Position numbers and translations under genes: made by a program. The notes beneath the pieces are model-generated. The model did no database searches, was not told where the DNA came from, and saw nothing but the letters and a program-made list of their open reading frames with translations. Below are positions 1,442 to 51,029 of a stretch of DNA of 64,000 nt, in pieces (position 1 is the first letter of the stretch; every line of letters begins with the position of its first letter). The DNA is from Antedon mediterranea (Eukaryota; Animalia; Echinodermata). The stretch is taken from NCBI RefSeq assembly GCF_964355755.1, contig NC_092676.1, forward strand, positions 11,695,888-11,759,887, in the 5' to 3' direction.

Positions 1442-1475
<34 letters not shown>

Positions 1476-2078
1476 ATTATAACTGTTATTACATTTTTAA
1501 CCTTGTAAATAAATTCTTAATCTTGTAAAATAAATCATTTATGTATACGACTAAATAATATATCAAATTATAGCTTCTTTATTAATTATGGGCCTCATCT
1601 ATAAATTGTAGGTCTTCAACACTATTCGGGGAACCCTAAAAGCCATTTTCTTATACTATGTTGTCGTTAGGTCAATCTTCCTAGAATAAAAAGTTAATAT
1701 TCCGCTTTCAAAGTACAATATTAACATGTGATATATCGTGACTGTTGCTAATTGTAATTCTCACATAATTCTAAGTAGCGCTTGTTAATAATATTTTCAG
1801 TGATTAGACATATATACCGAAGCCCAGCCCAAAATTACTCCTATTATATTAAACAGTAAACAGTAAATACGTCCCCTACACTTAATTGATATACCTTAAC
1901 TCGTGGAATTATTTGCTTAGATTTGATTTCTTAGTATTTACAAATTTCTGTTAGTATTCATTTTGCTTGTACAACAAAGTACATTCAATAGGTCTATTTT
2001 CATGGAGAACAAGAATACTCTTGAAATGAATAACATTGCTTTGAGTTACCTCTCTAGTGGTTAATAATATTAAGGGTT

Positions 2079-2873
2079 TTATGCATTTCTGTCATTATCT
2101 CTTTGGAGGTGACGGTGGTGGTAGTATTCGTCATCACCTTGCCTATAATTAACGTCGTTGTCATATGCATAACTCCGATTTGTTTTCTCATATCGTCTTT
2201 CCACATCCATGTCTACATAACTCACAACAACTGTTCCCGACGCCTTCCTTACAGTTGGAACTTCTGGCGTTCTGCTCTCGGTTAATAAATGCTTTTCAAC
2301 AAATCGAGTTGTCTGTGGTCCTTCGAAAATCTTGCGATTGTCATCGTGAGAAATTGCTTCTTTCGGTCTGTATCTATCCGTCTTTGTTCTTGCTGACTCA
2401 ATTACTTCTCTAACAGCAATATCAGATCTTTTGACATCATAATCAGAAATGACTTCACCATATTTTATTACACCTTCCTCTTTAATATTTTGTTGTGACG
2501 TTAATGCTTCAACACCAGAAAGAGCATTTCCCGAATATTTCTTCATCCCACCGACAACATCAGCTGATGACAGTTTCCTTGAGTCATCATTATATTGTTG
2601 CAGAACATCACTTTCCTTTTCTACAAAGCCAGTAATGGACTCTGGACTGAGTCCAACAAGAGAAGAACGTCCAAGAGCTTGGACCGTTTTCGGTCCAGTT
2701 AATGCTGTTTCGATAACATTTCCGGTGGTGTCAGACCTTTGCGAATCGCCGAAAGAATGTAAATTTACACCATCGTTACGCTGAAATCCCGTAATTTTTC
2801 CATATGGCTTTGATTTTAGTGATCCCGACATTTTTCCTTTACCTATCTGTACCGATTGAATGGATTTACCAAC
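2079..2873 (-). CDS. Terminal exon: ~264-aa cytoplasmic tail
   Basis: Acceptor tttttag at 2874; in frame with ORF 2079..2831. Confidence 0.8.
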   Translation of the reverse strand, partial: VGKSIQSVQIGKGKMSGSLKSKPYGKITGFQRNDGVNLHSFGDSQRSDTTGNVIETALTGPKTVQALGRSSLVGLSPESITGFVEKESDVLQQYNDDSRKLSSADVVGGMKKYSGNALSGVEALTSQQNIKEEGVIKYGEVISDYDVKRSDIAVREVIESARTKTDRYRPKEAISHDDNRKIFEGPQTTRFVEKHLLTESRTPEVPTVRKASGTVVVSYVDMDVERRYEKTNRSYAYDNDVNYRQGDDEYYHHRHLQRDNDRNA

Positions 2874-5800
2874 CTAAAAAGAAACGAGTTTTATCTGTAG
2901 TAATTTTAGGCCTACTATTATAACGCATTTAGTTTTCATCATACATTTTACAAGAATTGAAAAACAATACCATAAATAAAATGATTAATTATTAATATTT
3001 ACAATATTTTTTTAATTTATTTATTTATTCAGGTTTATATAGTTAAACACATTCAGCCCGAAGGCTGAAATTGTTAATTTACAAATATATATATATTGAA
3101 ACACAAATATTAAAAAATACAAAATTTATACAAAACATTAAAAAATTTGAAAAAGTCAGTTAAATAATAAAATTGTGTTAAAAAATTCCAAAATTTATAT
3201 ACAAATGCATAGGTCTATATATGTAAATATTTATAACATAGCCATCTTCAGCGTGTGATCATTTTAAGTATTTTTAAAATTAAGGATTCTACTCTATAGT
3301 TAGAGCAGGCGAGGTCTTAAGACGGTTAGTTCTACAAACAGGTATATTAATTAGGGATTTATCTACCGTGGTTGATCTAAGCTCTCTAGTAATAATGCGG
3401 TAGTCGGGAAAAATAGTTCTGTACAACTCCGATTTCAAGAGCCTTTCTCCAAATTAATTTAATTAACGTCTCTCGTCTGTATGCGAGAGTGGTCATATTT
3501 GTAAGCTCAAGAGCTGAATCATACGTAATGAAAGCGGGACCCAGAAAACCACGTAAAACTCTCTTGTGCACTCTTTCAATGGTCGATATTTGGGCCTTAT
3601 TGATGCTTCCATGCCACACATGGCAGGCGTATTATAACATTGGGCGAATAAAACAAATAATAATTGTTCTAGCTTTTTAACAATGACCGTATGCTCAATT
3701 CAGTCGAAGGCCTTTTTAAAATCAACGGCACAAATATCCACAAAAGAACCACCTTTTTCAATGTCACTAATTCCAGACTGAATCATGTCCACAAGATAAT
3801 GGTTAGTAGAGGAGCCTTTACGGCAACCAAATTGTTTAATATCTAAATGTTCATGAATGTCACTAGTCACCCAATCAGTAAGGAAAGACTCAAACAACTT
3901 GGCGAAGATGGGGGTAAGTAAAATTGGCCTGAGGTCTTGGAATGATGTCACATTAGAAACTTTTGGAACAGGAATGGCTGTTGCTAACTTCCATAACTCG
4001 GGAAAGACACCTTCGTTAAGACATCAATTAAAAATATGGGCAAGTGGAGTAGCAATTTCAAAGGTAAATTCTTTTATAAGTTTAATTGGCAAGTCATCAG
4101 GGTGACTAGACTTTTTTGACTTTGTTAATCAATCGTCTGACTTGTCCAGGAAAAATTTGCAGGAAGAGCATTTACATCAATATATAATATTGTAACATGC
4201 ATACTTTCTACAAAAAACACATAATAAAAAATAAAAAGGCATAGGCCTACTTACTATTATATCTAACACAGTAATTCCTTTGAGAATAAGTCCACCAAGC
4301 ATACCATTAAGAACACCGAAGAAGTATTGAACGTTTTCATTCTTGATGGCTATACATCCGATTATCCAATTAAAACCGACAAGTGACACCAGAGCAATGT
4401 ACATCAGTATTTTCAGCCTAAAAAAAGTAACATCTTTATTTATTGTCATTCAGCACAGAGTATTCATTGCCTCACGTGTTTCGTTACATGCGTACAAGTT
4501 TCAGTCACCTGCTGGGACTGACTCACAAACGCATAGGACTAACGCTTTCAATGTCCGTGTGGTTTGTTTTCACGCCGCGCCTTTGGTCAGTTATATTTAA
4601 GAGGACGGAATCATTTAGAAACTGTATCACAGGCGAAAGCTATATTACTACGGTTGGCAATTTTGAGAATTTGTAAACTTGAATAATTTATAGGTCCATG
4701 CTGCTCGGCCCAAAGCACGTCTGGGAAAAGAGAGTCTTTAGGGGCTCACGATTGAACGATTTTGGATTCTCGCCTTTTGATTGGTTGACGCGAATCAAAA
4801 CAGTGTGGAAGAATTTTCTCACGTGTGCCATGGAGTCTCTGAGGACTCTCACAATACACGAGAAAATAATGTATTTTAATTATTTAAATAAAGGTGGTGT
4901 TGGTCTTGTCATGTCCAAATCAATCTACAAGTGTATCAAGAAGATTGAAAGCATCTCAGAAAGAATTCTTTACGTCACCTTCAATGGAAATCCCTAGTTT
5001 TGTATCACTGTTGTGTATGCTTCTACAGAATGTGGCCCTTCATCTACAAAGAAAGACTTCTATGCTTCACTTGCAGAACATCTGGGGCCAGTGAAAAGAC
5101 ATAACACCAACCTTGTTATTGGCGACTTCAACGCCAGAATTGGTGCTGACAGCCATCTTGCACATCCTGAGGTTGTTGGGAGATGCTATTATCATGATGA
5201 GACTAACGATAACGGCGAGAGATTGGTAAACCTGTGTGTAGAACACAAACTTCGTCCTGCACAGTCAAGATTTTCCCATCCACGTGGGAGGCAATGGACT
5301 TGGACGCACCCAGCAGGATCAAAACATCAGCTCGATCACATCCTTATAAACTACAAGTGGGTAAATTCCCTGCGAAATTGTCGAGCCTATAACTCCGTCG
5401 AACTATACTCCGATCATCGTATCGTAAGCATCCACCTTCATACAAGTCTAAGATCAACCAAGAAAAAGGCATGCAAGAGACCTACGTTTGACTGGAGGAA
5501 GCTAGAAGATCCAGATAAGAAGGAGCAGTTCCAACTTGAATTATCAAACCGTTTCCAAACACTGTCTTTAGATGACCAATCCATAGATATATCAGAAAGG
5601 TACGAGTCTTTTGCAACTTCAGTAGGTGATGCAGCTGAGAACGTGCTTGGCAGGCAGGAAAAACATGGACTGCTCAGTTGGGTATCTGAAGAGACATCCG
5701 ACCTCAAGCTTAAAAGAGACGAGGCTAAGAAGAGGTTCTTACTATCAAAATCTCCCCAAGCCAGAGAAAGGTGGAGGAAGCTCAATACTCGACTAAGCGA

Positions 5801-8800
5801 CTCATACAAAGATGATGAGGCTGCAAGACTTCATCAGCAAATGGAAGATCTTCAAATTACATATGAGAGAGGGCATTACTCAACCACCTGGAACATAATA
5901 CACACGTTGTCCGGGAAAAACACAAAGAATGGCGAGCCACCAGAGAACGCAGAACACCTTATTGAAGAGTGGAACAATTACTTTAGCTCCATTCTGAATA
6001 ATGACAGTGGCTTGGCCCCATCAGATCTACCTGCTCCTGCCAGTGACGATCTTCAAATATGCACTGACCCTCCCACACGTGAAGAAACTGCAGAGGCTAT
6101 CACAGTTATGAAAACCAACAAAGCAGCTGGCCTCGATTGTGCTATTACGGCAGAAGCCCTCCAAGGAGGTGGTGATCAGATGATTGATACCATCCATGTC
6201 TTTTGCTCGGAGGTGTACTAAAAAATGTCGCCTCCTAAACAGTGGGTGACAAATTTCATCATCCCACTGCCAAGGAAAGGTGATCTGTCACTTATGACAA
6301 ACTACAGGGGCATCTCTCTCATGTCAATAGCTGCGAAGGTTTAAAACAGAATCCTTCTAAACCGCATTCGGCCTCACATTGATCCGCTGCTCCGGAAGAA
6401 CCAGGCAGGCTTTCGCCCAGGCCGCAGCTGTGCTCAGCAAATACACATCTTGAGAAGAATTATGGAAGGCTTCAGAGACTACCAACTTCCGTTAATAGTC
6501 ACCTTTGTTGATTTCAAGAAGGCCTTCGACTCGATCAATAGGTCAATAAACATCAGTGTGCCAAATGTGAGCACGTACTGTTCAGCGTCTTCGGAGGAAA
6601 AACATTTAGTAGCATTGATATATAGATAATACAATCATTTTTAACCAAGAACAATTCACAACTGATACGTGACCGATTAAAACGTTTCAAAGTCAGTTCT
6701 CTTATGAGTGTAGGCTTATATATGGAATAAAATATGTTAATAAAGTGATTCTTACTGAGGAGGTTTTTGTTGAATATGATCTAAATCACTGCTACTTCTA
6801 GATGACGGAACACTTGATTCATCTTCGGAAGATTTGTCTGCATCCTTTCTAGTTTTCGATAACAATACAAGTAGACCAATCACAGCAGCCTAAATAACCA
6901 TATGAGCATTTTAATATCTCACAACTAAACTCAACAACAGCAATCACCAACGTCGATATTGTCATTAAATTAATAGAATACAGTGTGTCAATATTCAAGA
7001 AAATTAAAGAAATTATTTATGGATTTTGCATTAACCTTAAGCTTCGATCGCATTGGACTTAATTTGGTCAAATTAACCGAGTCATCAGCTAAATTGACTA
7101 AGAAAAGTCCAATCCAAACACTGGCGACAATTCCCTTAGGGTCAAATTAACCAACTCAAATGGTTATTTACCTGTCCAGTAGAATTTACCATGGTCTCAG
7201 TAAAACTAATCAGGTTGGGTAAAAAGTGCAATACGAACATGGTACTCGGGTAAACACATTACCTTGCAGACAATCGTAGTAAAACTAACTGCGTGAAATT
7301 ATTATTATTAAGTACGAACAATTGTTAAATTTGAAGTTACTTTGGTAAAGTTTACTATTTTTCAAGCCCAAACAAAGCTTTAGAAAAGTTCTATTTCTTA
7401 TACATTGCGTTTATATTAGACCTATTTACATTTATTTATTTTAATGTTGATTTGTTAGTTAGTTAGAAAGCTTTCTTATTATTATTATATATTTTTAGGA
7501 AGGGACGGCATTTTTTAAATTGTATTACTGTGCTACTAAAAAGTTAGAAATAAGTTTCGAATCAATTATACCTACCAATGCTAACACCGCCAACGGAACA
7601 ACAAGTCCCCAAATGGCCCCATTGTCTGGATTTGGCCAATTTCTAGAATTAAAGTTTCAATAACAATAACGTTATTTTAATAAAATTTAATCGGAATTAA
7701 ACATACTAAAACATCTTTGGTTGAATAGAAAAGCCTTATTTGAATCTCGACTTCATGAAACTTTTTAAATTCATCATTATCGTTTCGTATCTATTATAAC
7801 AAATCCCATTAATAGTTTTTAAAAAGAGCTTTGGAAATGGTTGGTAGTCGACTGTACTTAAAATATTCATCCTAAATTTGCAATTAACGTAACTATATGA
7901 TTAGATAGAATATAAGGGTTAACATTGAAAACAAACCTGTATTTATCAGATGTATACACACTCCAAAGAACAGCACTTGTTATAGCCACAATAGCCGCTG
8001 GTGTTGTCCATCCGACAGCCTGATATACAAACTTACGTTTTCCACGTGTCATAGATGGACGGAACACATCTAAACATAAGTCTAATACTAGTATAAACAT
8101 CCATAAGAACACTGTCAGGATACTGTAATGTAGAGTCATCGCTAACCCATTTTGTTTATTCTACGAAAAAAAAAACAACAAATCGGACTACAGTAATTAT
8201 AAATTGCAAAGTGCAAATGGTTGGTTAAATTGGTTAAAAAGTATTAAAATATTTTAAGAGCACTATAATATAAAACACTTTACTCTAAATATAAACAACA
8301 TCATAATAGTATACAGATAAAAAAGATAAAGTGACAATATACACCATTTAAAAGTATGATGTAATACGGCACATATGAATTAACATATCTCTCTCGTCCG
8401 GCTATTGCACGATCTCAGTCTTTTTTATCTTTATCATAGTTTTATTTAAAGGATGATTTAAATCGTCACATACTTTCGTAGTCTTAGTAACTATCATTTT
8501 GTTTTATAGGTCAACCAAAATAGTGTTTAATCCTGCGATCCGGCACGCTTTATTTAATATATCTATCTACCCCATAATTGTTCTGAGAAAGAACAGAACA
8601 TTTCCTTTTCCAGATACAACAATAAATACAACAATCACACCTAGATATTTGTAGCTTTCAACTGATTCGATTTCATGATTATTATTTTTTAGGGGTGGGT
8701 TTGGTGGGGTCTATAGTTTACTATGTCGGTCGATTGGTCGGTCTGTCTGTCTGTCTGTCGGTCTGTCTGTCGGTCCGGTATCACTATGCATTGTAGCACG

Positions 8801-11800
8801 CGACTTAATGGCTGTTGGCCTTGTTTTAATTTAGCAGGAGGTAGTTAACCTTACAACAATTGGAAAAGCATCAATTTCATCATGATATTCTGTTTTACTA
8901 ACTCTACTCTTTAACAGGCCAACTATGGCGGTGTCATCAACGTATTTTAAGTAATGTGTCTATATATAAATTATATTCAATTCTGACACAATGGAAAAAC
9001 TTTGGGAAAAATCTCAGCCTTTGATACCTACCTTATCTATCTCAGATGTATCGCGAAACGTAGATTGGATAACATTAGTTTTCAGTATTATGACAAATTT
9101 TAGCCTTTCTTTTTTTCAGGGTTATTTTCACACATTCGCGCTGATCAACTTGCTTCCGGCCGGGTCCCGTTACTTCCCGCAAAATGGCCCAAATCCTTCG
9201 GGTGATCCAATGTTAGTATTGACGTATACCAAAAATACCTTCTGTGTTCGATTACATAAGATACGTTTGATCCATTCAATTATAAACGGATTCACCTCTA
9301 CCTTATTCAACTTATTTATTAAATGGCGGGATTGAGGGTATCCAATGATGAGGAGAAGTCATTAAAGGTTACTTTCGCATAACATTTTAAATTATTTGTA
9401 TTCTGTTTAAAAGTTGGGTGATAGTTAGAATTGCATCATCAACCGATCTGGTTGGTAGACGAACTGATATGGATCAATTAAACAGAGCCCGTTTCTCAAG
9501 AATAAGTCTATGAACCACAGGAGATATCCAGGGTTTGACTTTTTTACGGGAGCGACGAACTGGAATACTATCATTGACACAAGCGAGAAGGAAATCCGAA
9601 AACTGATCCCATGCCACATTGATGTCAGTGAAGTCCCATGGAGTCAACAAAATTAGGCTCTGATAATGTTCAACGTTTGCTTTGTGGTACAGATAACTTT
9701 CACGGAACACGTTGGGTAGTTTTCCAGGAGATCCGCGAATTCTAAACGTTACCATATGATGGTCAGAATTGGCAAGACCTGCATCAATTTTTACTTCACA
9801 CAAACGATCCGGGTGGGAAGTAAATATAAGATCAATTATTGTATTAGAACTAAAATCATTCGATGATATAGTTACGCCAAGAACTAGTTGAACATACTAC
9901 TGTACATAAATGTATAATTACTGAATGTATACTGCATTGTACTATATTATTGTAAAATGAGCAACTTCTTGGAATTCTTTATTATCCAAGTAGTGATTGA
10001 ATAGAAACATTTCTCCAGTACATTTAATAGCATGATTTATATGTATTTCTTACAGTTTATCATCTGAGCCGCTACAGAGTGCAACAATAAAGGTCAATTT
10101 GATGTACCGAATAAGAGCAATATGTACAAATGTATTTTTAGTCGCGTGGAAGCGACTCTATAGTTCACTATGTCGGTCGGTCGGTCTGTCTGTCTGTCTG
10201 TCTGTCGGTCTGTCTGTCGGTCTGTCTGTCGGTCTGTCTGTCGGTCTGTCTGTCTGTCTGTCGGTCCGGTATCACTATGCGTTTTATCGCTTTATGACCT
10301 TATCTTGATATCAGTTTAATCTAGCTAAGTCAATTTTTCACAGAATATTCCTTATGGCCAGGAATCGATGTGGTTATGTTTTCACGGTGCGCAATAAAAA
10401 ATTACGCGGTCTACGCACGATTTAACGAAATCACGTTTGTAATCATATCTTAACAACCATGAATCACAATTAAATAAAATTTGGTACTCATAAATTTCAG
10501 GGCATAAATCATCATATGGCAATACAATTACGTGCGTAGCGCATGTAACGCATGCGTAAGCGCGCTTAAAATTTTCAAAATTTATTTTCGATGAAATAAG
10601 AGTACGTTTCAGGCAATTTTAAGCGTTTACAAAATTGCCATGAGTGCGCAGATTTTTGCGCGCGCACTGCGCGTTAAATGTTATTGCGCACTCTTCTTGC
10701 CCGATTTCTGTTTTCTTGACTTACTTTTCAACTCGAAATTACGTTATACGAGCACGTCAAAAGTGACAGGCTACGCACGTGTAAATTAAAAAAATATAAA
10801 TGTTTTTAAACATTTCAACATTTTTAAACATGTTCAGTAATTTCGGTCAGTATAATTCACTATGTCGGTCGGTCCGTCTGTCTGTCGGTCTGTTTGTCTG
10901 TCGGTCCGGTATCACTATGCATTGTAGCACGCGACTTAATGGCTGTTGGCCTTGTTTCTAGTTTAATCCTCCTTAAGTCCACGGAGAAAGATGTGTCAGA
11001 AATGATAGATTATACAACTTACTTTGTCATGGACCTTGTCAAAACCAGTTTCAGCTAACATGGCAATGTTAGATGCTTGGATAGCAAGAAGAATGCAACG
11101 GATAATTGTAGATTCTGGCATTTTCTTCAAATTACTATAAATAAATTGAAGTCGGAATAAGTTTAATTGTCTGTTAAATGAGGTCATTGAGTTTAAATTA
11201 AAACAAAATCACACCTTAATTTCATTGTAGCAGCAATTGATGCCGAGGCAAATGCGAAAGATACTGCGGAACTGGTCAAACCAATTGCCTTCAGAGAACG
11301 TGTAAGGCCAGCCTAAAACAAAAGAGATCACACACTCTGCTCATTTTGTATACCTAACAATACCTTTATATTTTTTGTCACAAAACCATCTGTATAACGC
11401 AAGTGGCTGCCAAATCGTATCGTAAAAAAATATCAAGATTTCAAGAGGATATAAATGGAGTCGTCAGCTAGCTCCGCGCCCCCATTGTAAAAAAAAGTTG
11501 CTTTAAGCGGTGATATTTATTATTTACACAGTTCGCGGATTTGAATTTGAATGTTCTGAGCATTAATATTAATGGCCACAGCGTTTTACTCACTGAGATC
11601 TACGAAATTTATTATGTTCCATGAGCACGTGTAATTAATTAAAACTCTAACAATGCGATTAGTCGATACGGTTGGCACTACAGATGAGATTGAGTAGTTG
11701 ATACATGACGTAACAACTCGCGAATCGTGGCCGCTCAGACGTCAAAATGCTGTTTTTGCCTTTATATTTTTTGTCACAAAACCATCTGTATAACGCAAGT

Positions 11801-23800: not shown

Positions 23801-26800
23801 CTGATTCTTGAAAGTTCGGTAATCGTCTTTTTATTAATTCCAGAGAGACTACTAGAAAATACTTGATCATCTATTTCATTAGTCCAAAGCAGCCTACATC
23901 CTAAATAGATGATGACACAGTTAATAACATGAATATGAACTTATCAGAATCGTAGCGAAAATCTATACGTGTAAGCTACGCTATTATTAATTACAATGGC
24001 GATTGTCAGTAAATGCAGATGTTCACTGCGCCCGAAAGAAAGAGCATAAGAATAGTTTTATTGCATCGCCATAGTGATGTCATGTTAAATTGATTGATTT
24101 ACTAACAGTCACGTCAGGAAGTATTAAACATTCCAGTTGTGGCGCCAGTGTATTCCCGACGGGGGGGCTAAAGTCCCCGACAGGAGGCTATGTGAGCATC
24201 ACTTGGCTGGGGCCAGGGAGCGTCAAGGCCACGGAAGCAACGCTTATTCCAAGCGTAATTTGAGGCCGTTTTAATCGACGCTGGGCCAATTTTTTTTATA
24301 GAGTTCCTGTATAAATGTTTCATACAAAAGGACACCAACAGACAAATGCGTCCAAGTAACTTGATTCACATTTTGGTCCATGTAACTTTGATACAGCCCA
24401 GATACCGACGCATGAACCGAAATGAAAATGAATTAGACGTTTTACTATAATAGTGAAAACATTTTCTTCTGGCTTTTAGTATATTGATATGAAGGTTCAT
24501 TGAGTGTAAACGAGTAAACTTTTATTTTACCTTACGTTTCAAGACAGTCTCGTTTAGCTGTCATCTTGACTTCAACATTTACTAGAAATTAGCTGGGATG
24601 TGGGGCGTAATAAATCCATAGGGAACGATCTTATTTTAGTATCCTAGTGTAATATATTTTTCTTTATTACTTGAAGACAAAATGGCATTTAAATCATGTA
24701 CGAAAACCGACTATCAGGGCGAATTACATGTTCTAAAAAAATCGGAAAACACCCACTTGATGTTTTCAAAACACATTGCACGTCGTCGTGGTCAGATGGT
24801 ATGCGTGACTGACGGAACAATGCAACAAAAATCAAGTGTAGACTGACCAATTTGCATTGGGAACATCCGTTTATTACCTCCCAGGTCTTTGTTTACGAAC
24901 ATTTTTCGGGACTACGACAAGAAGTTCATGACATACAGGATATTGAAAATGTAATAACGTAGCAATAATAAGATGTTGGCCTAACGAAAATTAAATGTTT
25001 TTTGTTTAATAATGTAGTCGTCCAATACACCTCTCTGGTACCACCACTGAACGTGCATGACTATTCACAGCAAGCCTACCTGTTTCATCGATGGCGATTC
25101 CATTCACATTTTGCCCGAATATTACTGTTTTTCTTCCTTCACCGTTTCCTTTACGAAATCTCTCAATACGCTTTAGGCCATTGTCAGAAAAGTACACGTA
25201 CCTACAAGAAAGTAAAATTAAAATTTGTAAAGCAGCTTCAAATTGTGATGGTATTTTATCCTTTGAACAAAATTCTTATTATATAATTTTATTAGTATTA
25301 ACATTATATTATTTCTATGCCTCTAAACAACATTGAATTTCAAGTTACCCATTGGCATTGGCCAAAGACATATCTTGGGGATCCTTTAAGCCTCCGACTA
25401 ATCGTTTTCTATTACTTCCACTCAGATCACTAACACTTATTGAATTGTCGACAGATGACATAAAATATACTTTTCTGTCCTGACTATCAATGACAAGAGC
25501 ATTAATTCCTGAAAAAAATATTGATAAATGAAATTTTTGATCCAGTGATAAATTCAGTCCAAATTTGCAATCAAAGTTAAGGCAAAATGTAAAAGAAAAA
25601 CACAGAAATACAATAAAATACAAAGTCCAAATGGCGTAGTCCGAAGAAGTTCAACTAGTATACATTTATATACCCTATACCAATAATTCGTCATTCTATT
25701 TCAGGATAACTCTGGAAAAACATTTCAATTGAATAAATATATATCTTTGGTAGAGGAATTTAAATTTTATTAGTAGCTTACCTTGAGATTGTAGAACAAT
25801 TTTGATGTCAGTACCGTCAATATTGGCACTATTTATTTGCGTGGTATTTGCCCAGTATACCTTCTGTTCTTTAGAATCATACGCTACAGCATTAATCCTA
25901 CCTAAAACCTTAATATTGAATGGTTTTAACACAATATTGTCCTCGTCACCATGTTTCAAGTTTGCATAATAAATTATATTGTGAATTTCATCGGTCGCCA
26001 AAATAATGTAACCTACAAAATAAGTATGTTTAATTAGCATTGTTTACGTTCCAAACAAAATAATCAACTCTACATAACCCTAACCCTAACATAATTCAAT
26101 TTAAAAATCAAAATATCTAAAAGTCTAAATTGTGCAATCAAAACACGTGTTGATAGTGTTTGTAAACATTAAATCACCTCCTTGTTCTCTTTCTGGTATA
26201 CCAAACTTTTGTCCTCCTAGTCTAAATCCAGGTCTTCCACCTCCTTGACCTTCAGGTCTACCACCTGCTTGTCCACCGGGCCTACCACCTCCTTGTGCTC
26301 CGGGCCGATAACCTCCTTGACCTCCAGGTCTACCACCTCCTTGACCTTCAGGTTTACCACCTCCTGGGCCTCCAGGTCTACTACCTCCTTGACCTCCAGG
26401 CCTTCCACCTCCTTGACTCCCAGGTCTTCCACCTACTTCTCCTCCTGGTTTACCACCTCCTTGACCCCCAGGTCTTCTACCTCCTTGACCTCCAGGTCTT
26501 CCACCTCCAGGCTTATCACCTCCTTGAACTCCAGGTTTTTCACCTCCTTGACCCCCAGGTCTTCCACCTCCTTGACCACCAGGTCTTCCACTTCCTTGAC
26601 CTCCAGGTCTTCCACCTCCTTGACCTTCAGGTTTACCACCTCCTGGGTCTCCAGGTCTACTACCTCTTTGACCTCCAGGCCTTCCACCTCCTTGACTCCC
26701 AGGTCTTCCACCTACTTGTCCTCCTGGTTTACCACCTCCTTGACCCCCAGGTCTTCTACCTCCTTGACCTCCAGGTTTACCACCTTCTGGGCCTCCAGGT

Positions 26801-29800
26801 CTACTACCACCTTGACCTCCGGGTTTTCCACCTCCTTGACCTCCAGGTCTTCCACCTGCTTGACCTCCAGGTCTTCCACCTCCTTGACCTCCAGGTTTTC
26901 CATCTCCTTGACCTCCAGGTCTTCCACCTCCTTGACCTCCAGGTCTTCTACCTCCTTGACCTCCAGGTCTACCACCTGCTTGTCCACCGGGCCTAACACC
27001 TCCTTGTGCTCCGGGCCGACCACCTCCTTGACCTTCAGGTCTACCACCTGCTTGACCTTCAGGTCTACCACCTTCTTGACCCCCAGGTCTTCCACCTCCT
27101 TGACCTCCGGGCCTACCACCTCCTTGACTTCCAGGTCTTCCACCTTCTTGACCCCCAGGTCTTCCACTTCCTTGACCTCCAGGTCTTTCACCTCCTTGAC
27201 CTCCAGGCCTTCCACCTCCTTGACCTCCAGGCCTTCCACCTCCTTGACCTCCAGGTCTTCCCTCTACTTGACCTCCAGGTCTTCCACCTCCTTGACCTCC
27301 AGGTCTTTCACCTCCTTGACCTCCAGGTCTTTCACCTCCTTGACCTCCAGGTATACCACCTGCTTGTCCACCGGGCCTAACACCTCCTTGTGCTCCAGGC
27401 CGACCACCTCCTTGACCTCCTGGTCTACCACCTGCTTGACCTCCAGGTTTACTACCTTCTGGGCCTCCAGGTCTACTACCTCCTTGACCTCCGGGCCTAC
27501 CACCTCCTTGAACTCCAGGTCTTCCACCTCCTTGACCTCCAGGTCTTCCACCTCCTTGACCTCCAGGTCTTCCACCTTCTTGTCCACTGGGCCTACCACC
27601 TTCTTGTGCCCCGGGCCGACCACTTCCTTGACCTCCAGGTCTTCCTACTCCTTGACCTCCAGGTCTTCCACTTCCACCTCCTTGACCTCCAGGTCTTCCA
27701 CTTCCTTGTACACTGGGCCTACCACCTCCTTGTCCTCCGGGCTGACTAAGTCCTTGACCTTCAGGTCTACCACCTGCTTGACCTTCAGGTCTACCACCTC
27801 CTTGAACCCCAGGTCTTCCACCTCCTTGACCTCCAGGTCTTCCACCTCCAGGCCTACCACCTCCTTGACCTCCGGGCTTACCACCTCCTTGACTTCCAGG
27901 TCTTCCACCTTCTTGACCTTCAGGTCTTCCACTTCCTTGACCTCCAGGTCTTTCACCTCCCTGACCTCCAGGCCTTCCACCTCCTTGACCTCCAGGCCTT
28001 CCACTTCCTTGACCTCCAGGTCTTCCACCTACTTGACCTCCAGGTCTTCCACCTCCTTGACCTCCAGGTCTTTCACCTCCTTGACCGCCAGGTCTTCCAC
28101 CTCCTTGACCTCCAGGTCCACCACCTGCTTGTCCACCGGGCCTAACACCTCCTTGTGCTCCGGGCCGACCACTTCCTTGACCTCCAGGTCTTCCAACTCC
28201 TTGACCTCCAGGTCTTCCACTTCCACCTCCTTGACCTCCAGGTCTTCCACTTCCTTGTACACTGGGCCTACCACCTCCTTGTCCTCCGGGCTGACTAAGT
28301 CCTTGACCTTCAGGTCTACCACCTGCTTGACCTTCAGGTCTACCACCTCCTTGAACCCCAGGTCTTCCACCTCCTTGACCTCCAGGTCTTCCACCTCCAG
28401 GCCTACCACCTCCTTGACCTCCGGGCCTACCACCTCCTTGACTTCCAGGTCTTCCACCTTCTTGACCTTCAGGTCTTCCACTTCCTTGACCTCCAGGTCT
28501 TTCACCTCCCTGACCTCCAGGCCTTCCACCTCCTTGACCTCCAGGCCTTCCACTTCCTTGACCTCCAGGTCTTCCACCTACTTGACCTCCAGGTCTTCCA
28601 CCTCCTTGACCTCCAGGTCTTTCACCTCCTTGACCGCCAGGTCTTCCACCTCCTTGACCTCCAGGTCTACCACCTGCTTGTCCACCGGGCCTAACACCTC
28701 TTTGTGCTCCGGGCCGACCACCTCCTTGACCGCCAGGTCTTCCACCTCCTTGACCTCCAGGTCTACTACCTTCTGGGCCTCCAGGTCTACTACCTCCTTG
28801 ACCTCCGGGCCTACCACCTCCTTGTGCTCCGGGCCGACCACCTCCTTGACCTCCTGGTTCACCACCTGCTTGACCTCCAGGTCTACTACCTTCTGGGCCT
28901 CCAGGTCTACTACCTCCTTGACCTCCGGGCCTACCACCTCCTTGAACTCCAGGTCTTCCACCTCCTTGACCTCCAGGTCTTCCACCTCCTTGACCTCCAG
29001 GTCTTCCACCTTCTTTTCCACTGGGCCTACCATCTCCTTGTGCCCCGGGCCGACCACTTCCTTGACCTCCAGGTCTTCCAACTCCTCGACCTCCAGGTCT
29101 TCCACTTCCACCTCCTTGACCTCCAGGTCTTCCACTTCCTTGTACACTGGGCCTACCACCTCCTTGTCCTCCGGGCTGACTAAGTCCTTGACCTTCAGGT
29201 CTACCACCTACTTGACCTTCAGGTCTACCACCTGCTTGACCTCCGGGCCTACCACCTCCTTGACTTCCAGGTCTTCCACCTCCTTGACCTTCAGGTCTTC
29301 CACTTCCTTGACCTCCAGGTCTTTCACCTCCTTGACCTCCAGGCCTTCCACCTCCTTGACCTCCAGGCCTTCCACCTCCTTGACCTCCGGGCCTTCCACC
29401 TCCTTGACCTCCAGGTCTACCACCTGCTTGTCCACCGGGCCTAACACCTCCTTGTGCTCCGGGCCGACCACCTCCTTGACCTCCTGGTCTACCACCTGCT
29501 TGACCTTCAGTTTTACCACCTTCTGGGCCTCCAGGTCTACTACCTCCTTGACCTCCAGGCCTTCCACCTCCTTGACCCCCAGGTTTTCCACCTACTTGTC
29601 CTCCGGGTCTACCACCTCCCTGACCTCCAGGTCTTCCACCTCCAGGCCTCCCACCTCCTTGTCCTCCGGGCCTAACACCTCCTTGAACTCCAGGTCTTCC
29701 AACTCCTTGAACTCCAGGTCTTCCACCTCCTTGACCTCCAGGTCTTCCACCTCCTTGACCTCCAGGTCTTCCACCTCCTTGACCTCCAGGTCTTTCACCT

Positions 29801-32274
29801 TCTTGTCCACTGGGCCTACCACCTCCTTGTCCTCCGGGCTGACTAAGTCCTTGACCTTCAGGTCTACCACCTGCTTGACCTTCAGGTCTACCACTTCCTT
29901 GACCCCCAGGTATACCACCTCCTTGACCTCCAGGTCTTCCACCTCCAGGCCTACCACCTCCATGACCTCCGGGCCTACCACCTCCTTGACTTCCAGGTCT
30001 TCCACCTCCTTGACCTTCAAGTCTTCCACTTCCTTGACCTCCAGGTCTTTCACCTCCTAGACCTCCAGGCCTTCCACCTCCTTGACCTCCAGGCCTTCCA
30101 CCTCCTTGACCTCCAGGCCTTCCACCTCCTTGACCTCCAGGTCTACCACCTGCTTGTCCACCGGGCTTAACACCTCCTTGTGCTCCGGGCAGATCACCTC
30201 CTTGACCTCCTGGTCTACCACCTCCTTGACCTCCCGGTCTTCCACCTCCAGGCCTACCACCTCCTTGACCTCCGGGCCTACCACCTCCTTGACTTCCAGG
30301 TCTTCCACCTCCTTGACCTTCAGGTCTTCCACTTCCTTGACCTCCAGGTCTTTCACCTCTTTTACCTCCAGGCCTTCCACCTCCTTGACCTCCAGGCCTT
30401 CCACCTCCTTGACCTCCGGGCCTTCCACCTCCTTGATCTCCAGGTCTACCACCTGCTTGTCCACCGGGCCTAACACCTCCTTGTGCTCCGGGCCGACCAC
30501 CTCCTTGACCTCCTGGTCTATCACCTGCTTGACCTTCAGGTTTACCACCTTCTGGGCCTCCAGGTCTACTACCTTTTTGGCCTCCAGGCCTTCCACCTCC
30601 TTGACCCCCAGGTTTTCCACCTACTTCTCCTCCGGGTCTACCACCTTCCTGACCACCAGGTCTTCCACCTCCAGGCATCCCACCTCCTTGTCCTCCGGGC
30701 CTACCACCTCCTTGAACTCCAGGTCTTCCACCTCCTTGAACTCCAGGTCTTCCACCTCCTTGACCTCCAGGTCTTCCACCTTCTTGTCCACTGGGCCTAC
30801 CACCTCCTTGTGCCCCGGGCCGACCACCTCCTTGACCTCCAGGTCTTCCAACTCCGTGACCTCCAGGTCTTCCACTTCCACCTCCTTGACCTCCAGGTCT
30901 TCCACTTCCTTGTACACTGGGCCTACCACCTCCTTGTCCTCCGGGCTGACTAAGTCCTTGACCTTCAGGTCTACCACCTGCTTGACCTTCAAGTCTACCA
31001 CCTCCTTGACCCCCAGGTCTTCCACCTCCTTGACCTCCAGGTCTTCCACCTCCAGGCCTACCACCTCCTTGACCTCCGGGCCTACCACCTCCTTGACTTC
31101 CAGGTCTTCCACCTCCTTGACCTTCAGGTCTTTCACTTCCTTGACCTCCAGGTCTTTCACCTCCTAGACCTCCAGGCCTTCCACCTCCTTGACCTCCAGG
31201 CCTTCCACCTCCTTGACCTACAGGTCTACCACCTGCTTGTCCACCAGGCCTAACACCTCCTTGTGCTCCGGGCCGATCACCTCCTTGACCTCCTGGTCTA
31301 CCACCTGCTTGACCTTCAGGTTTACCACCTTCTGGGCCTCCAGGTCTACTACCTCCTTGACCTCCAGGCCTTCCACCTCCTTGATCCCCAGGTTTTCCAC
31401 CTACTTGTCCTCCGGGGCTACCACCTCCCTGACCTCCAGGTCTTCCACCTCCAGGCCTCCCACCTCCTTGTCCTCCGGGCCTACCACCTCCTTGAACTCC
31501 AGGTCTTCCACCTCCAGGTCTTCCACCTCTTTGACCTCCAGGTCTTCCACCTCCAGGCCTACCACCTTCTTGTTCTCCGGGCCTACCACCTCCTTGACCT
31601 CCAGGTCTTCCACTTCCTTGTACACTGGGCCTACCACCTCCTTGTCCTCCGTGCTGACCAAGTCCTTGACCTCCAGGTATACCACCAGCTGTTATATCTT
31701 CCCCTGTTTAAAAAATATTTTAAAAGTACAGAACAAACATTTTTTTCGAAGTACTTTCGTAGTCCTTTTCTCTATACATACTTCAGTAAATCTATTTACA
31801 GAAAGATGTTCCTACCTGTATATACTTCAACTTCACAAAGAGTGAGAGGTTCTTTTCCAGGAAGATATACACTGACATACCGTCCTGTGATTGGTTGGTC
31901 ACATACCATTTCGATAGGATTTGAACCAATCTTAGATGATGTTAGAGAAGCCCCACATTGTGCATTTCCAGTAAAAGGTGAAACTTTGTTGTTCCCTGCA
32001 CGAATTTCAGCACCTACTAGCCTGTTATCTAGGTATATTAGGAAAAGTTGTTCTGGAGATTAGATAGTAACCTGATTTCTTTTTGAAAATTACAAAAAAT
32101 TATACACTTTATTATAGTAAAGCTTTACACACATAAGTTATAATATTATTTAGTACTAAATATGTTTTAATTGGTTCTTACCACAACAGTCTTTTCTGTT
32201 GTATATCACAATCTTGTAAATAGTTATGGGTGATCCTAAATCAACATACCACCAAGGATTTTCAGATCCAGTTT
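2079..32274 (-). CDS. Atypical adhesion GPCR: F-type lectin + Gly/Arg/Pro/Gln repeat stalk + YWTD propeller + GAIN/GPS + 7TM (5' partial, 21 exons)
   Basis: Manually spliced exons in 5'->3' order: 32274-32182, 32028-31816, 31703-26178, 26012-25782, 25508-25349, 25201-25080, 23900-23649, 21645-21586, 21339-21211, 21089-20994, 20725-20653, 20358-20235, 20050-19992, 19907-19799, 11312-11215, 11134-11023, 8160-7937, 7642-7576, 6889-6756, 4417-4255, 2873-2079. All are AG/GT bounded with matching phases; no in-frame stop was found (total 8840 nt). Motifs: PWWYVDLG..NRKDCCDNRL, VYWAN/VYFSD, LHYSILTVFLWM, GWTTP, QYFFGVLNG. Confidence 0.85.
3015..4140 (-). mobile_element. Degenerate L2/Crack-like LINE RT fragment
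   Basis: DLRPILLTPIFAKLFESF..QFGCRKGSST..DFKKAFD; (AAAT)n-like tail near 3020. Confidence 0.75.
4255..4417 (-). CDS. Exon: TM6-TM7
   Basis: LVSLVGFNWIIGCIAIKNENVQYFFGVLNGMLGGLI. Confidence 0.85.
4640..4860 (+). repeat. Unclassified interspersed repeat; homologue at 14550-14870 (minus) ends in a (CA)n tail
   Basis: Shared gctcacg.ttgaacgattttggattctcgcc..tgattggttgacgcgaa. Confidence 0.6.
4890..6550 (+). mobile_element. RTE-clade LINE fragment (APE endonuclease + start of RT), disrupted
   Basis: GGVGLVM, IGDFNARIG, QLDHILIN, SDHRIV, KAAGLD, NYRGISL, DFKKAFDS; several stops. Confidence 0.85.
6756..6889 (-). CDS. Exon: TM5 end / Ser-rich ICL3
   Basis: AAVIGLLVLLSKTRKDADKSSEDESSVPSSRSSSDLDHIQQKPP. 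Confidence 0.75.
7576..7642 (-). CDS. Exon: ECL2/TM5 (67 bp)
   Basis: NWPNPDNGAIWGLVVPLAVLAL; a 67-nt phase 2-0 exon at this position is typical of adhesion GPCRs. Confidence 0.85.
7937..8160 (-). CDS. Exon: TM3-TM4
   Basis: LHYSILTVFLWMF...YQAVGWTTPAAIVAI, a class B2 signature. Confidence 0.88.
8959..9100 (+). mobile_element. 5' part of a family-A-related non-autonomous Helitron
   Basis: TCTATATATAAATTAT..TTCTGACA..gatacctaccttatctat..cgcgaaacgtagatt, shared with the 33411 copy. Confidence 0.6.
9425..9890 (-). mobile_element. CR1-like LINE endonuclease/linker fragment
   Basis: IDLIFT, SDHHMVTF, KPWIS motifs. Confidence 0.7.
10135..10957 (+). mobile_element. Helentron-associated non-autonomous element (HINE/DINE-1-like); 3' fragment also at ~8710-8826
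   Basis: 5' TTTTTAGTCGCGT..AGCGACT, (GTCT/GTCG)n microsatellite, 3' ACGCGACT + GGC..GGCCTTGTTT, T-rich flanks. Confidence 0.75.
11023..11134 (-). CDS. Exon: ICL1/TM2
   Basis: SNLKKMPESTIIRCILLAIQASNIAMLAETGFDKVHDK; donor GTAAGT. Confidence 0.78.
11215..11312 (-). CDS. Exon: TM1
   Basis: AGLTRSLKAIGLTSSAVSFAFASASIAATMKL; phase 0-2. Confidence 0.75.
11365..12157. repeat. Near-perfect 396-bp tandem duplication (2 copies)
   Basis: tttatattttttgtcacaaaaccatc starts at both 11365 and 11761. Confidence 0.9.
12830..16100 (-). mobile_element. Degenerate CR1-like LINE (EN + RT), interrupted at ~14550-14870
   Basis: RKDR..GG.VL, VGDLN, SGVSQGSVFGPLFF, FADDT, IEYVQRRATR. Confidence 0.85.
18663..19694. 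mobile_element. piggyBac-type MITE
   Basis: TTAA-CACTTTGACTGCCA ... TGGCAGTCAAAGTG-TTAA; duplicated subterminal aacgaagatcttcgtgtttggcagtcaa at the right end. Confidence 0.9.
19799..19907 (-). CDS. Exon: GPS motif (non-canonical)
   Basis: YDFSTKGCETNNSNYTTDGVRCSFEYGNVFVLLSEKQ aligns to W.t.GC......t.C.C.HLT.FAVLM. Confidence 0.75.
19992..21645 (-). CDS. Six small exons encoding the linker and GAIN-like domain
   Basis: 21645-21586, 21339-21211, 21089-20994, 20725-20653, 20358-20235, 20050-19992. Phases chain correctly; includes VVSDFITVT..VMLQF (GAIN-B-like) and DPVCAY. Confidence 0.7.
21800..21880 (-). mobile_element. Gypsy gag zinc-knuckle remnant
   Basis: YPHEAKCPAKGKTCYLCGKVN. Confidence 0.45.
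23649..23900 (-). CDS. Exon: YWTD propeller, last blades
   Basis: CRLLWTNEIDDQVFSSSLSGINKKTI...PTDIVSADDHLFLIS; not in the ORF track because it has no start codon. Confidence 0.8.
25080..25201 (-). CDS. Exon: YWTD propeller
   Basis: GYVYFSDNGLKRIERFRKGNGEGRKTVIFGQNVNGIAIDET. Confidence 0.85.
25349..25508 (-). CDS. Exon: YWTD propeller
   Basis: INALVIDSQDRKVYFMSSVDNSISVSDLSGSNRKRLVGGLKDPQDM. Confidence 0.85.
25782..26012 (-). CDS. Exon: YWTD/LY propeller, blades 1-2
   Basis: GYIILATD...INAVAYDSKEQKVYWANTTQINSANIDGT. Confidence 0.85.
26178..31703 (-). CDS. Giant 5,526-nt exon encoding ~1,842 aa of GGRPGGQG-type repeats
   Basis: Acceptor taaacag at 31704, donor GTGATT at 26177. In frame with ORF 26125..30678 (first full codon at 31701, 1023 nt upstream of the ORF start). 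Phase 1-1, matching both neighbouring exons. Confidence 0.8.
26220..31690. repeat. Coding minisatellite with a ~24-bp unit (GGAGGTCAAGGAGGTGGAAGACCT on minus) and higher-order block duplications
   Basis: Roughly 230 degenerate octapeptide units; landmark variants recur at 549-bp (28029/28578) and 279-bp (26433/26712) spacing. Confidence 0.95.
31816..32028 (-). CDS. Exon: F-type lectin domain, C-terminal half
   Basis: DNRLVGAEIRAGN...QCG...CDQPITGRYVSVYLPGKEPLTLCEVEVY; phase 1-1. Confidence 0.88.
32182..32274 (-). CDS. Exon: F-type lectin domain, middle part
   Basis: TGSENPWWYVDLGSPITIYKIVIYNRKDCC; donor GTAAGA; acceptor ttttccaaag is less certain. Confidence 0.8.
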
Positions 32275-33410
32275 CTTTGGAAAAATTAAAGAAATAATAT
32301 TTGTTATTTTCTAGTTTAAAAAAATTACTTCTATTTGGATATTTATTATAAATTATTTAGATTTAAAAATGAAATATTTAATTGAAAACAGTAAATAATT
32401 AGGTGACTTTTTTGGAAAATCTTAATGGCTATCCGCTATTAATTAGTATTTACATATCTAACTTCTACATGCCTAAAAAAGTAGGAATTTGTGGCACACA
32501 GTTAATCACATGTCAACGTTTTAAATCAATTTTGAATCAGATTAGAGCATGGTTCAAGACACTTTAAGCCTTTTAACATTTTAAACTCGTTGCCGCCGCG
32601 TGCGCATTTTGTCGCTCGCAACAGTGAATTAGCGGAGAAAGTGGTTAATAAATTTCATTTGCATTATTTGATGTGTCAAAATGTGAAATAACGACATACA
32701 TGTACGTCAAACTATAACATCGTGAACTTTTAAATGCAAATGTACGAAGAATTAATTATGAAAGCCAGTGAGTTGTATATATGAATTCATGTACATTTTT
32801 TATCTATGGCCCCTAATTTTTTTTTTTATGATTTTTCGTTTCGCCATAGATTATCACAGAGCGCATCGCTTTTATCTCAGATTTTAATATAATATTTAAT
32901 GTATTTACTAACAAGACAAATCATAGCTTAAGACAAAAGACGAACAAAACTTGTCGAGTTTTGGAATTTAAAATAATAGAAATTTAACAAGGAATTTTAT
33001 CACAAAGAGAAGAAAAATTACAAACTGACAGAAACTGTTTCTTCCTATATCGTATTCTGTGAAGAACTTACTATTTCATGTAAACATATTAAGATATATT
33101 GTAATGATAAATTCTGGGTTGATTATGGTGATTGGCCTTTAATAGCAATTTATTTTGATAAATACCTCATAAACGTACATATATCTTCCAAAGTGGTGTT
33201 TTTATATCAATGAGGTTTTGTAATTTGAAAGTCAATTCTCAACAATAATAACAAAAACAACTGGGGTAACTTACATAGATATATTTTGTGGTGCCAGGAC
33301 AATACGAAAAATACAAAAAAATAACCACAAACAAAATAACAACAAACAAAACACAAAAAACACAATTTAAATATGGCTAATCTAATAATAACATAATGCA
33401 ACTAGCGTCA

Positions 33411-50105: not shown

Positions 50106-50131
50106 TTAACCATAATTTATATATAGATTAT

Positions 50132-50975: not shown

Positions 50976-51029
50976 TAAAAATATTTAAGCATACTTAAAG
51001 AGATGTATTATTATTATTATTATATTATA

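What the first reader, a model, noticed from the sequence alone, without database searches (positions are those of the whole stretch)
2079..32274. Adhesion GPCR with an unfamiliar architecture: fucolectin - 1,840-aa elastomer-like stalk - YWTD propeller - GAIN - 7TM
Seen in sequence: ORF fragments scattered over 30 kb splice into one frame-consistent protein of at least ~2,946 aa. Established: adhesion GPCRs join adhesive N-terminal modules to a GAIN-7TM unit. I know of no described family combining an F-type lectin, an LRP-type propeller and a giant Gly-rich repeat. Inference: a glycan-anchored receptor on a long extensible tether, acting for example in mechanosensing, gamete or microbe recognition, or adhesion.
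Basis: partly seen in the sequence, partly recalled or inferred. Interest (0 to 1): 0.92.

Follow-up and report, generated by a model that had tools for sequence, protein, structure and literature searches.

The report
Feather-star receptor on a giant leash
A spliced gene, likely from a feather star, is predicted to encode one cell-surface adhesion receptor whose likely sugar-gripping tip sits at the end of a floppy 1,820-residue glycine-rich chain, a combination of parts not found in the papers searched, which would let a cell hold a sugar-coated target up to half a micrometre away without shedding its outer part.

Summary
Twenty-one minus-strand exons with GT-AG introns give one 2,946-aa frame. 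Spliced contigs from one public run show 14 of 20 junctions, including lectin-to-repeat, repeat-to-propeller and GPS-to-TM1. No contig spans the repeat, and the 5' end (signal peptide, first half of the lectin) was not found in the window. Nearest relatives are feather-star proteins. The propeller-GAIN-7TM core has an Antedon paralog, and the 7TM groups with two Anneissia proteins; the four form a clade (100/99). All four lack the TM3-ECL2 cysteine pair. This copy has also lost the GPS His, Thr and fourth Cys, so it is predicted not to self-cleave. The overall plan (folded tip, huge disordered spacer, GAIN, 7TM) is that of human ADGRG4; the parts are different. Most likely it is an uncleaved, glycan-gripping tether receptor with a very soft spring. 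Ligand, tissue and signalling are untested, as is conservation of the lectin and repeat in other species. The scan earlier noted a propeller receptor with a 5,400-aa inner tail elsewhere in this genome (e1-10592684). Verdict: new variant of a known kind, interest 0.62.

The parts
32182..32274 (-). Exon 1 of the model (not the first exon of the gene): middle of the F-type lectin domain, with the first Arg and the Asp of the R-x-D-x4-R fucose motif
   Evidence: Pfam F5_F8_type_C_2 E 3.8e-8; motif; joint 32028/32182
31816..32028 (-). Exon 2: C-terminal half of the F-type lectin domain, with the last Arg of the motif
   Evidence: PDB fucolectins; 77% and 65% to Antedon mediterranea proteins; joints on both sides
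26178..31703 (-). Exon 3, 5,526 nt, phase 1-1, no stop: about 1,822 residues of RPGGQGGG-type repeats (Gly 50.9%, Pro 13.0%, Arg 11.4%, Gln 11.4%, net charge +159, no Cys, 1 Tyr)
   Evidence: both ends spliced in run X1; interior not bridged
23649..26012 (-). Exons 4-7 (26012-25782, 25508-25349, 25201-25080, 23900-23649): one LRP-type beta-propeller, six YWTD-like blades inferred, no EGF module after it
   Evidence: aligns to paralog XP_071964025, whose stretch hits LRP2/4/6 and nidogen; joints
19799..21645 (-). Exons 8-14 (21645-21586, 21339-21211, 21089-20994, 20725-20653, 20358-20235, 20050-19992, 19907-19799): short GAIN-like domain, about 217 aa, with a degenerate GPS at 19846-19808
   Evidence: joints; GPS alignment; the matching part of paralog XP_033118479 matches GAIN/GPS models at TM 0.59-0.68
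4255..11312 (-). Exons 15-20 (11312-11215, 11134-11023, 8160-7937, 7642-7576, 6889-6756, 4417-4255): class B2 seven-helix domain lacking the TM3 and ECL2 cysteines
   Evidence: Pfam 7tm_2; best PDB hits ADGRL3, L2, D1; continuous alignment to XP_033107992; paralog model has 7 helices and matches adhesion GPCR structures first
2079..2873 (-). Exon 21: 264-aa cytoplasmic tail (27 Ser, 17 Thr, 13 Tyr) and stop; short blocks shared with the Anneissia ortholog
1462..2078 (-). Inferred 3' UTR, at least to the (TA)n microsatellite at 1445-1473

Best explanation
The locus is one spliced adhesion-GPCR gene, likely of a feather star, whose product is predicted to stay in one uncleaved piece and likely works as a sugar-gripping anchor on a very long, soft leash that would signal only when a bound target is captured or pulled far away. 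Steps: (1) shown: exon chain, domain order, splicing at 14 of 20 junctions, loss of the GPS His/Thr/Cys and of the TM3-ECL2 cysteines. (2) Inferred: the F-type lectin at the tip binds fucosylated glycans; two Arg and the Asp of the motif are present, the His and the calcium motif lie in the missing exon. (3) Inferred: the Gly/Pro chain is a hydrated random coil, about 25-35 nm at rest and 665 nm fully stretched, and its +159 charge would add weak binding to polyanions such as sulfated glycans. (4) Inferred: the propeller is a second, membrane-near protein-binding surface, as in LRPs. (5) Inferred: because the chain cannot be shed at the GPS and the spring is soft, load reaches the GAIN-7TM unit only after some 300-420 nm of stretch; output would be by a non-dissociating route through the 7TM (W6.53, G6.50 and G7.50 kept) and the conserved tail.
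For: Single frame, 20 of 20 GT-AG introns. One 3,704-nt contig of run X1 joins the repeat tail to exons 4-14 across 11 introns with CT..AC ends, and its loose end is exon 15; runs X2 and X5 cover intron sequence and show none of these joints. Its length equals the model plus a UTR ending inside the (TA)n repeat. A second contig joins exons 1, 2 and the repeat head. Paralog XP_071964025 aligns over residues 1945-2673 (27% identity, E 7e-91), and its two annotated isoforms differ by a 150-aa spacer that ends exactly where this gene's repeat exon meets the propeller. GPS: His at -2 in 0 of 3 subfamily rows that have a GPS against 9 of 9 other rows; Thr at +1 missing only here; the review gives His-Leu/Ile-Ser/Thr as the usual cleavage site (section read). 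High Pro+Gly prevents folding and amyloid (PMC5703643, passages). Uncleaved adhesion GPCRs can still sense force, and GAIN B unfolds or parts at 10-20 pN (PMC13197933, passages). Lengthening CIRL's ectodomain by about 20 nm flattened its response (PMC5548486, passages). Same plan in ADGRG4, proposed as a shear or distance sensor (PMC10687090, passages).
Against: The spliced evidence is one run whose kind is a guess, assembled from short pieces; no contig crosses the 5.5-kb repeat, so a single full-length transcript is inferred. Introns 15-20 rest on length and homology only. The 5' exons were not found in 31.7 kb upstream, so secretion and a working fucose site are unproven. The tethered-agonist strand is degraded (Thr+1 and Met+7 changed), and in CIRL the Thr+1 change gave a null, which counts against Stachel-driven signalling. 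The TM2 His and TM3 Glu seen in 6 of 10 other rows are absent in 4 of 4 subfamily rows, though other crinoid receptors lack them too. No relative with the repeat was found (1 unrelated hit among 7,938 candidates scored), and the Anneissia ortholog record begins at TM1, so the lectin and repeat may be young or species-limited. The stretch figures are a worm-like-chain calculation with assumed persistence lengths of 0.4-0.9 nm. No tissue, ligand or signalling data.
Confidence: 0.45

Rival explanations
1. It is mainly a structural anchor: a weakly signalling or non-signalling 7TM that holds a lectin-tipped, positively charged polymer brush in the cuticle, mucus, adhesive layer or connective tissue.
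For: GPS, agonist strand, TM3-ECL2 disulfide and the TM2/TM3 polar pair are all degraded. The Antedon paralog carries a repetitive tail of about 5,400 aa inside the cell, so this subfamily has twice been joined to a giant repeat. Lectin plus glycine-rich domains recur in structural proteins such as sea-urchin spicule-matrix proteins and nematogalectin (PMC4944945, passages), and LRP-like proteins occur in echinoderm skeletal proteomes (PMC5460417, passages).
Against: W6.53, G6.50 and G7.50 are kept and short tail blocks are shared with the Anneissia ortholog. The repeat has no Cys and 1 Tyr, so resilin-type or disulfide cross-links are unavailable. The feather-star skeletal proteome's C-type lectins were reported to lack repeats (PMC7351957, passages).
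Confidence: 0.27
2. It is a ligand-capture receptor: the lectin on its long leash fishes for fucosylated microbes, food particles or gamete coats, and binding, not force, is the signal.
For: F-type lectins act in immunity, fertilisation (oyster bindins) and adhesion (PMC12221842, passages). Sea-urchin egg-jelly receptors also have GAIN domains. A soft leash widens reach and damps force. Close lectin paralogs exist in other crinoid proteins, one with four tandem copies.
Against: No route is evident by which binding at the tip of a disordered chain would reach the 7TM except by tension or clustering. No expression data. The repeat's role is not explained beyond reach.
Confidence: 0.2
3. The full-length protein is not the main product: two shorter transcripts each use one end of the repeat exon, or the repeat is shorter than assembled.
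For: No contig bridges exon 3. Exons 1-3 are all phase 1-1 and can be skipped in frame, as the paralog's spacer is. Reading past the exon 3 donor gives a stop at 26125-26127, i.e. a possible secreted lectin-repeat form. A 549-nt near-exact internal duplication (240 + 231 nt exact) could be recent or an assembly effect. The exon holds 182 AGGTG words like its real donor.
Against: Exon 3 is stop-free over 5,526 nt in this frame only, both ends are spliced in run X1, all 38 internal exact repeats of 60 nt or more are offset by a multiple of three, and a receptor starting inside the repeat would have no signal peptide.
Confidence: 0.08

Closest known systems
Human ADGRG4 (GPR112) (PMC10687090, passages read)
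   Same: [quoted passage not shown]
   Different: Its tip is a pentraxin-like domain and its spacer a stiff O-glycosylated mucin; here the tip is an F-type lectin, the spacer a soft cationic Gly/Pro chain with 3% Ser/Thr, and a propeller replaces the SEA/HRM region. No sign of orthology was sought or seen.
Latrophilin/CIRL (ADGRL) (PMC5548486, passages read)
   Same: Lectin-type tip on an adhesion GPCR; best PDB match of exon 17 is ADGRL3; works without cleavage and depends on ectodomain length.
   Different: Rhamnose-binding lectin fold, short ectodomain, intact GPS and agonist strand, intact 7TM disulfide.
Crinoid propeller-GAIN-7TM subfamily: Anneissia japonica XP_033107992 (likely ortholog) and XP_033118479, Antedon mediterranea XP_071964025/6
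   Same: One clade (100/99); TM3 and ECL2 Cys absent in 4 of 4; His-2 absent in 3 of 3 with a GPS; the Antedon paralog has the propeller starting at the same point.
   Different: Database entries are automatic names only. The paralog has a 150-aa optional spacer and a giant inner tail; both Anneissia records are partial and show no propeller, lectin or repeat.
F-type lectins (eel AAA, striped bass FBP32, oyster bindin) (PMC12221842, passages read)
   Same: Sequence match to both solved fucolectins; R-x-D-x4-R present.
   Different: The passages list C-type lectin, pentraxin, CCP, FA58C and transmembrane partners; 'GPCR' occurs 0 times in that review.
Lectin plus Gly/Pro-repeat structural proteins (sea-urchin SM family, nematogalectin) and elastomeric proteins (PMC4944945, PMC5703643, passages read)
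   Same: Lectin joined to a glycine-rich repeat; Pro+Gly 63%.
   Different: Those are secreted and use other lectin folds; elastin is hydrophobic and cross-linked, this chain is charged and membrane-bound.

Membership tests
Adhesion GPCR (class B2) | 7tm_2 seven-helix domain closest to adhesion receptors | tested here: met
   Pfam 7tm_2 E 1.8e-8 above cut-off; top 14 PDB hits are adhesion GPCRs; paralog model 7 helices, top Foldseek hits adhesion GPCRs
Adhesion GPCR (class B2) | GAIN domain with GPS motif directly before TM1 | tested here: met
   3 of 4 GPS Cys, Phe+3 and Leu+6 align; paralogs give Pfam GPS below cut-off (E 3.6e-4, 3.8e-3) and GAIN-model matches at TM 0.59-0.68. This protein's own GAIN was not folded.
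Adhesion GPCR (class B2) | Long N-terminal ectodomain with adhesion modules | tested here: met
Adhesion GPCR (class B2) | Self-cleavage site His-Leu/Ile-Ser/Thr (usual, not universal) | tested here: not met
   Tyr-Gly-Asn at -2, -1, +1 and Phe for the fourth Cys; uncleaved members are known
Adhesion GPCR (class B2) | Tethered agonist consensus TxFxxLM | tested here: inconclusive
   Phe and Leu kept, Thr and Met changed
Adhesion GPCR (class B2) | TM3-ECL2 disulfide cysteines | tested here: not met
   0 of 4 subfamily rows have either Cys; other rows 9 of 10 (one gap) and 10 of 10
Adhesion GPCR (class B2) | Signal peptide and G-protein coupling | not testable with these tools
   5' exons not in the window; the paralog begins with a hydrophobic leader
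F-type lectin domain | Sequence match to the F-type fold | tested here: met
F-type lectin domain | Fucose motif H...R-x-D-x4-R/K | tested here: inconclusive
   R-x-D-x4-R present; the His falls in the missing exon (spacing 26-27 in single-domain relatives; the review prints 24)
F-type lectin domain | Calcium motif h2DGx | not testable with these tools
   lies in the missing 5' half
LDL-receptor class B (YWTD) propeller | Six repeats matching LRP propellers | tested here: met
   six YWTD-like positions read by eye; LRP hits; Pfam on exon 5 only E 0.067; fold not confirmed, pLDDT under 50 for most of the paralog's propeller
LDL-receptor class B (YWTD) propeller | EGF module following the propeller, as in LRPs | tested here: not met
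   only 3 Cys between residues 2200 and 2300; the EGF pairing is recalled, not from a call
Elastomeric proteins | High Pro+Gly, disorder-promoting composition | tested here: met
   63%; PMC5703643 passages
Elastomeric proteins | Cross-linking into a network and measured recoil | not testable with these tools
   no Cys, 1 Tyr, 21 Lys, 207 Gln

The most novel reading that the evidence does not exclude
Feather stars have a receptor subfamily that gave up self-cleavage and the GPCR disulfide and became mounts for giant disordered polymers, one paralog outside the cell and one inside. This one is a long-stroke strain gauge: a fucose clamp on a 0.6-micrometre entropic spring that stays silent until tissue is stretched by hundreds of nanometres, a candidate sensor for the large length changes of crinoid ligaments or tube feet and a natural test of how spacer length and stiffness set adhesion-GPCR thresholds.
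Probability: 0.15. Interest if true: 0.88.

Novelty: new variant of a known kind. Interest (0 to 1): 0.62.

Why it matters
How force reaches an adhesion GPCR that cannot cleave, and how ectodomain length tunes it, are open questions (PMC13197933 sections read; PMC5548486 passages). This gene is a natural extreme: a spacer about 30 times longer than the insert that silenced CIRL, soft instead of mucin-stiff, on a receptor that lacks the cleavage site and the near-universal extracellular disulfide. A paralog with the same core and a short optional spacer gives a ready comparison. The 230-unit cationic Gly/Pro repeat is also a new natural sequence for disordered-polymer work. The ceiling is set by the fact that invertebrate adhesion GPCRs are known to shuffle domains freely (PMC2246102, PMC4302439, passages) and that ADGRG4 already has the same plan.

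Tried and rejected
No whole genome is held, so nothing beyond the window could be read. Search for the 5' exons: pattern scans and tblastn with three crinoid lectin proteins found no first half of the lectin in 32275-64000; the contig stops at 32254 and no joint from exon 1 upstream is among the 15 of 38 joints shown. No listed holder is on record as RNA; X1 is taken as RNA because of its joints. Depth in X1 over intron 3 looks near zero and the repeat end is about equally over-represented in X1 and X5, but contig depth cannot rank parts of a gene, so neither is used. Word-index search with exon 17 found nothing (13 candidates); the HMMER search found 17 proteins. Search with the repeat exon gave only an unrelated IF-2; that search covered 1,012-3,222 aa and the other two stopped at 2,000 aa, so a full-length ortholog could have been missed. 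Folding: single-sequence model of XP_033118479 failed (pLDDT 42.5); the paralog model is reliable only for the 7TM (mean 51.4); alignment A1 stacked the exons wrongly and was dropped. Selection on the repeat: pN 0.054 against pS 0.178 over 197 units, but units were picked by a pattern that fixes two residues, copies are not independent, and distinct variants (13 of 21 synonymous, 25 of 46 non-synonymous) show no difference, so it is not used. The long plus-strand Ser/Thr frame over the repeat (26221-30057) was rejected as a shadow: all joints are minus-strand. Three columns were mis-indexed (E3.50, G6.50, W6.53) and redone; generic residue labels other than W6.53, G6.50, G7.50 and C45.50 are recalled. 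Five terms searched in 4 supplementary files of PMC7351957 gave no hit; the skeletal proteome table may not be among them. No complex was predicted.

Full report
Observation. The window is AT-rich animal DNA full of retroelement remains. Reading the minus strand, I built a 21-exon model from 32274 to 2079. All 20 introns are GT-AG, and the joined frame is 2,946 codons with one stop (one search had one boundary off by a base). Exon 3 is a single 5,526-nt frame without a stop; the other two minus frames have 151 and 13 stops.

Splicing. Five runs hold the region, from two studies; none is on record as RNA. I laid three of the five on 19600-26300. Run X1 has one 3,704-nt contig that joins the last 79-81 bases of exon 3 to exon 4 and continues across 11 introns with CT..AC ends to exon 14; its loose end is the start of exon 15. 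X2 and X5 cover intron sequence and show none of these joints. The contig's length equals 79 + 3,008 (exons 4-21) + 617, which puts its end at 1462, inside the (TA)n repeat at 1445-1473. On 31600-51500 (X1 only) a 329-nt contig joins exon 1, exon 2 and the head of exon 3. So 13 of 20 junctions are listed joints, 1 is a matching loose end, and 6 rest on length and on continuous alignment to an ortholog. Limits: one run, assembled contigs, several joints marked 'between: not known', and nothing crosses the repeat.

Missing 5' end. Exon 1 starts in the middle of the lectin domain. The first half, with the calcium motif and the fucose-binding His, and the signal peptide were not found in the 31.7 kb upstream. 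They lie beyond the window, across an intron packed with mobile elements, or the assembly is broken here. More domains may sit there.

Domains. Lectin: Pfam and two solved fish fucolectins; nearest proteins are from Antedon mediterranea (77%, 65%) and Anneissia japonica (57%), 3 hits among 36 candidates, which places the window among feather stars by inference. Repeat: 1,822 residues, 188 of 217 segments are octamers, the commonest RPGGQGGG; Gly 50.9%, Pro 13.0%, net +159, no Cys, 1 Tyr. Propeller: LRP4/6/2 hits for exon 4, Ldl_recept_b clusters for exon 7, six YWTD-like positions, none exact. GAIN: about 217 residues, short; supported by the GPS alignment and by the paralog's match to GAIN models. 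7TM: Pfam 7tm_2, nearest solved relatives ADGRL3, L2 and D1.

Relatives. HMMER with exon 17 found 17 proteins. XP_033107992 (A. japonica, 55% on that exon) aligns from TM1 through the tail but its record starts at TM1. XP_071964025/6 (A. mediterranea, 6,356 and 6,206 aa) aligns over propeller, GAIN and 7TM (27%, E 7e-91); its isoforms differ by a 150-aa spacer that ends where the propeller begins, the slot that the lectin and repeat exons fill here, all in phase 1. XP_033118479 is a partial A. japonica copy of that paralog. In a tree of 15 GPS-7TM rows these four form one clade, 100/99 (left out: P0021-P0025 as near copies of P0012, and fragments P0010, P0016, P0019). The scan had noted, unreviewed, a propeller receptor with a 5,400-aa inner tail on another piece of this genome (e1-10592684); I had found the matching database protein before that look-up.

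Degenerate features (14-row alignment; P0012 and P0021 are near-identical). TM3 Cys: 0 of 4 subfamily rows, 9 of 10 others. ECL2 Cys: 0 of 4, 10 of 10. GPS His-2: 0 of 3, 9 of 9. Thr+1 and the fourth GPS Cys are lost only in this gene. Phe+3 and Leu+6 of the agonist strand stay, Met+7 is Ser. W6.53 and G7.50 are kept in the 3 subfamily rows that reach them, G6.50 in 2 of 3. The TM2 His and TM3 Glu are lost in 4 of 4, but also in other crinoid receptors, so that loss is not specific.

How it likely works. The receptor is predicted to reach the surface uncleaved. The lectin would grip fucosylated glycans. The repeat should be a hydrated coil (PMC5703643, passages); a worm-like-chain estimate gives 23-35 nm at rest, 665 nm contour, 0.01-0.02 pN/nm, and 296-423 nm of stretch to reach 10 pN, the range at which GAIN domains start to yield (PMC13197933, passage). 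In CIRL, 20 nm of extra length flattened the response, cleavage was dispensable, and the Thr+1 change was null (PMC5548486, passages). So this protein is better read as a long-reach tether that reports capture or large displacement than as a sensitive force sensor, and classical Stachel activation is doubtful. I put 0.45 on that, 0.27 on a mainly structural anchor, 0.20 on ligand capture without a force step and 0.08 on the full-length form not being the main product. Confidence in the gene structure alone is about 0.9.

Comparison with print. Searches of the held library: 'adhesion GPCR' with 'F-type lectin', 0 papers; with 'YWTD' and 'GAIN', 0; with 'crinoid', 2 listings on other subjects; three wider searches listed nothing on this gene by title or abstract start. 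The 2026 review has 0 occurrences of 'propeller' or 'echinoderm' in the 300,000 of 412,554 characters held. The library lacks most subscription papers, including any domain-architecture survey of F-type lectins published there. Against full novelty: ADGRG4 has the same plan; amphioxus adhesion GPCRs carry many unusual domains, a discoidin domain among them by the figure legend (figure not seen); sponge ones are likewise varied. Papers: PMC13197933, passages and sections 7, 9, 10; PMC12221842, PMC2246102, PMC4302439, PMC5460417, PMC4944945, PMC5548486, PMC5703643, PMC10687090, PMC13729602, passages; PMC7351957, passages and a term search of 4 supplements.

Verdict. Real, spliced, a divergent adhesion GPCR of a small crinoid subfamily with a combination of parts not found described. 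New variant of a known kind; interest 0.62.

Noticed in passing
P0026/P0014 (XP_071964025/6, Antedon mediterranea): Paralog with the same propeller-GAIN-7TM core and a repetitive cytoplasmic tail of about 5,400 aa rich in Arg, Thr, Glu; its 150-aa N-terminal spacer is optional between isoforms.
   Followed up: partly
window 36000-38250 (+): A Myb/SANT-like ORF (37192-37611, Pfam E 1.1e-4) is spliced in run X1 at 36414/37274, GT..AG, in frame; a second decayed copy lies at about 38370-38720 (-). With a transposase-like fragment at 39834-40052 (no Pfam hit; likeness recalled) this looks like a Harbinger-type element, possibly nested in the receptor's upstream intron.
   Followed up: partly
window 53969-57338 (-): Nearly whole non-LTR retrotransposon: endonuclease ORF (524 aa) abutting a reverse-transcriptase ORF (600 aa) in another frame.
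   Followed up: no
window 38918-39505 (+); 147-398 (-): GIY-YIG ORF (E 3.7e-5), Penelope-like by recall; a similar-looking fragment at the window start had no Pfam hit.
   Followed up: no
window 4683-6626 (+), 3389-4100 (-), 13146-16057 (-), 42557-45073 (+): Decayed endonuclease or reverse-transcriptase frames inside and upstream of the gene; they account for the long introns 14 and 19.
   Followed up: no
window 11363-12153; 35321-35555; 8736-8775, 10171-10266, 10863-10908: A 396-bp tandem duplication at 99% just before exon 15, an 80-bp three-copy array, and three copies of a small element with a (TGTC)n core.
   Followed up: no
window 20684, 23695, 23803, 31887; 22517-22608: Run X1 differs from the window at single bases in exons 11, 7, 7 and 2; run X5 lacks about 37 bases in intron 7. 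Probably alleles.
   Followed up: no
P0001 (XP_071941033): Antedon protein with four tandem F-type lectin domains whose His-to-Arg spacing is lengthened to 31-35 residues.
   Followed up: no
P0006, P0007, P0013, P0015, P0020: A second crinoid adhesion-GPCR clade (100/99) that keeps the GPS and disulfide but has lost the TM2 His and TM3 Glu.
   Followed up: no
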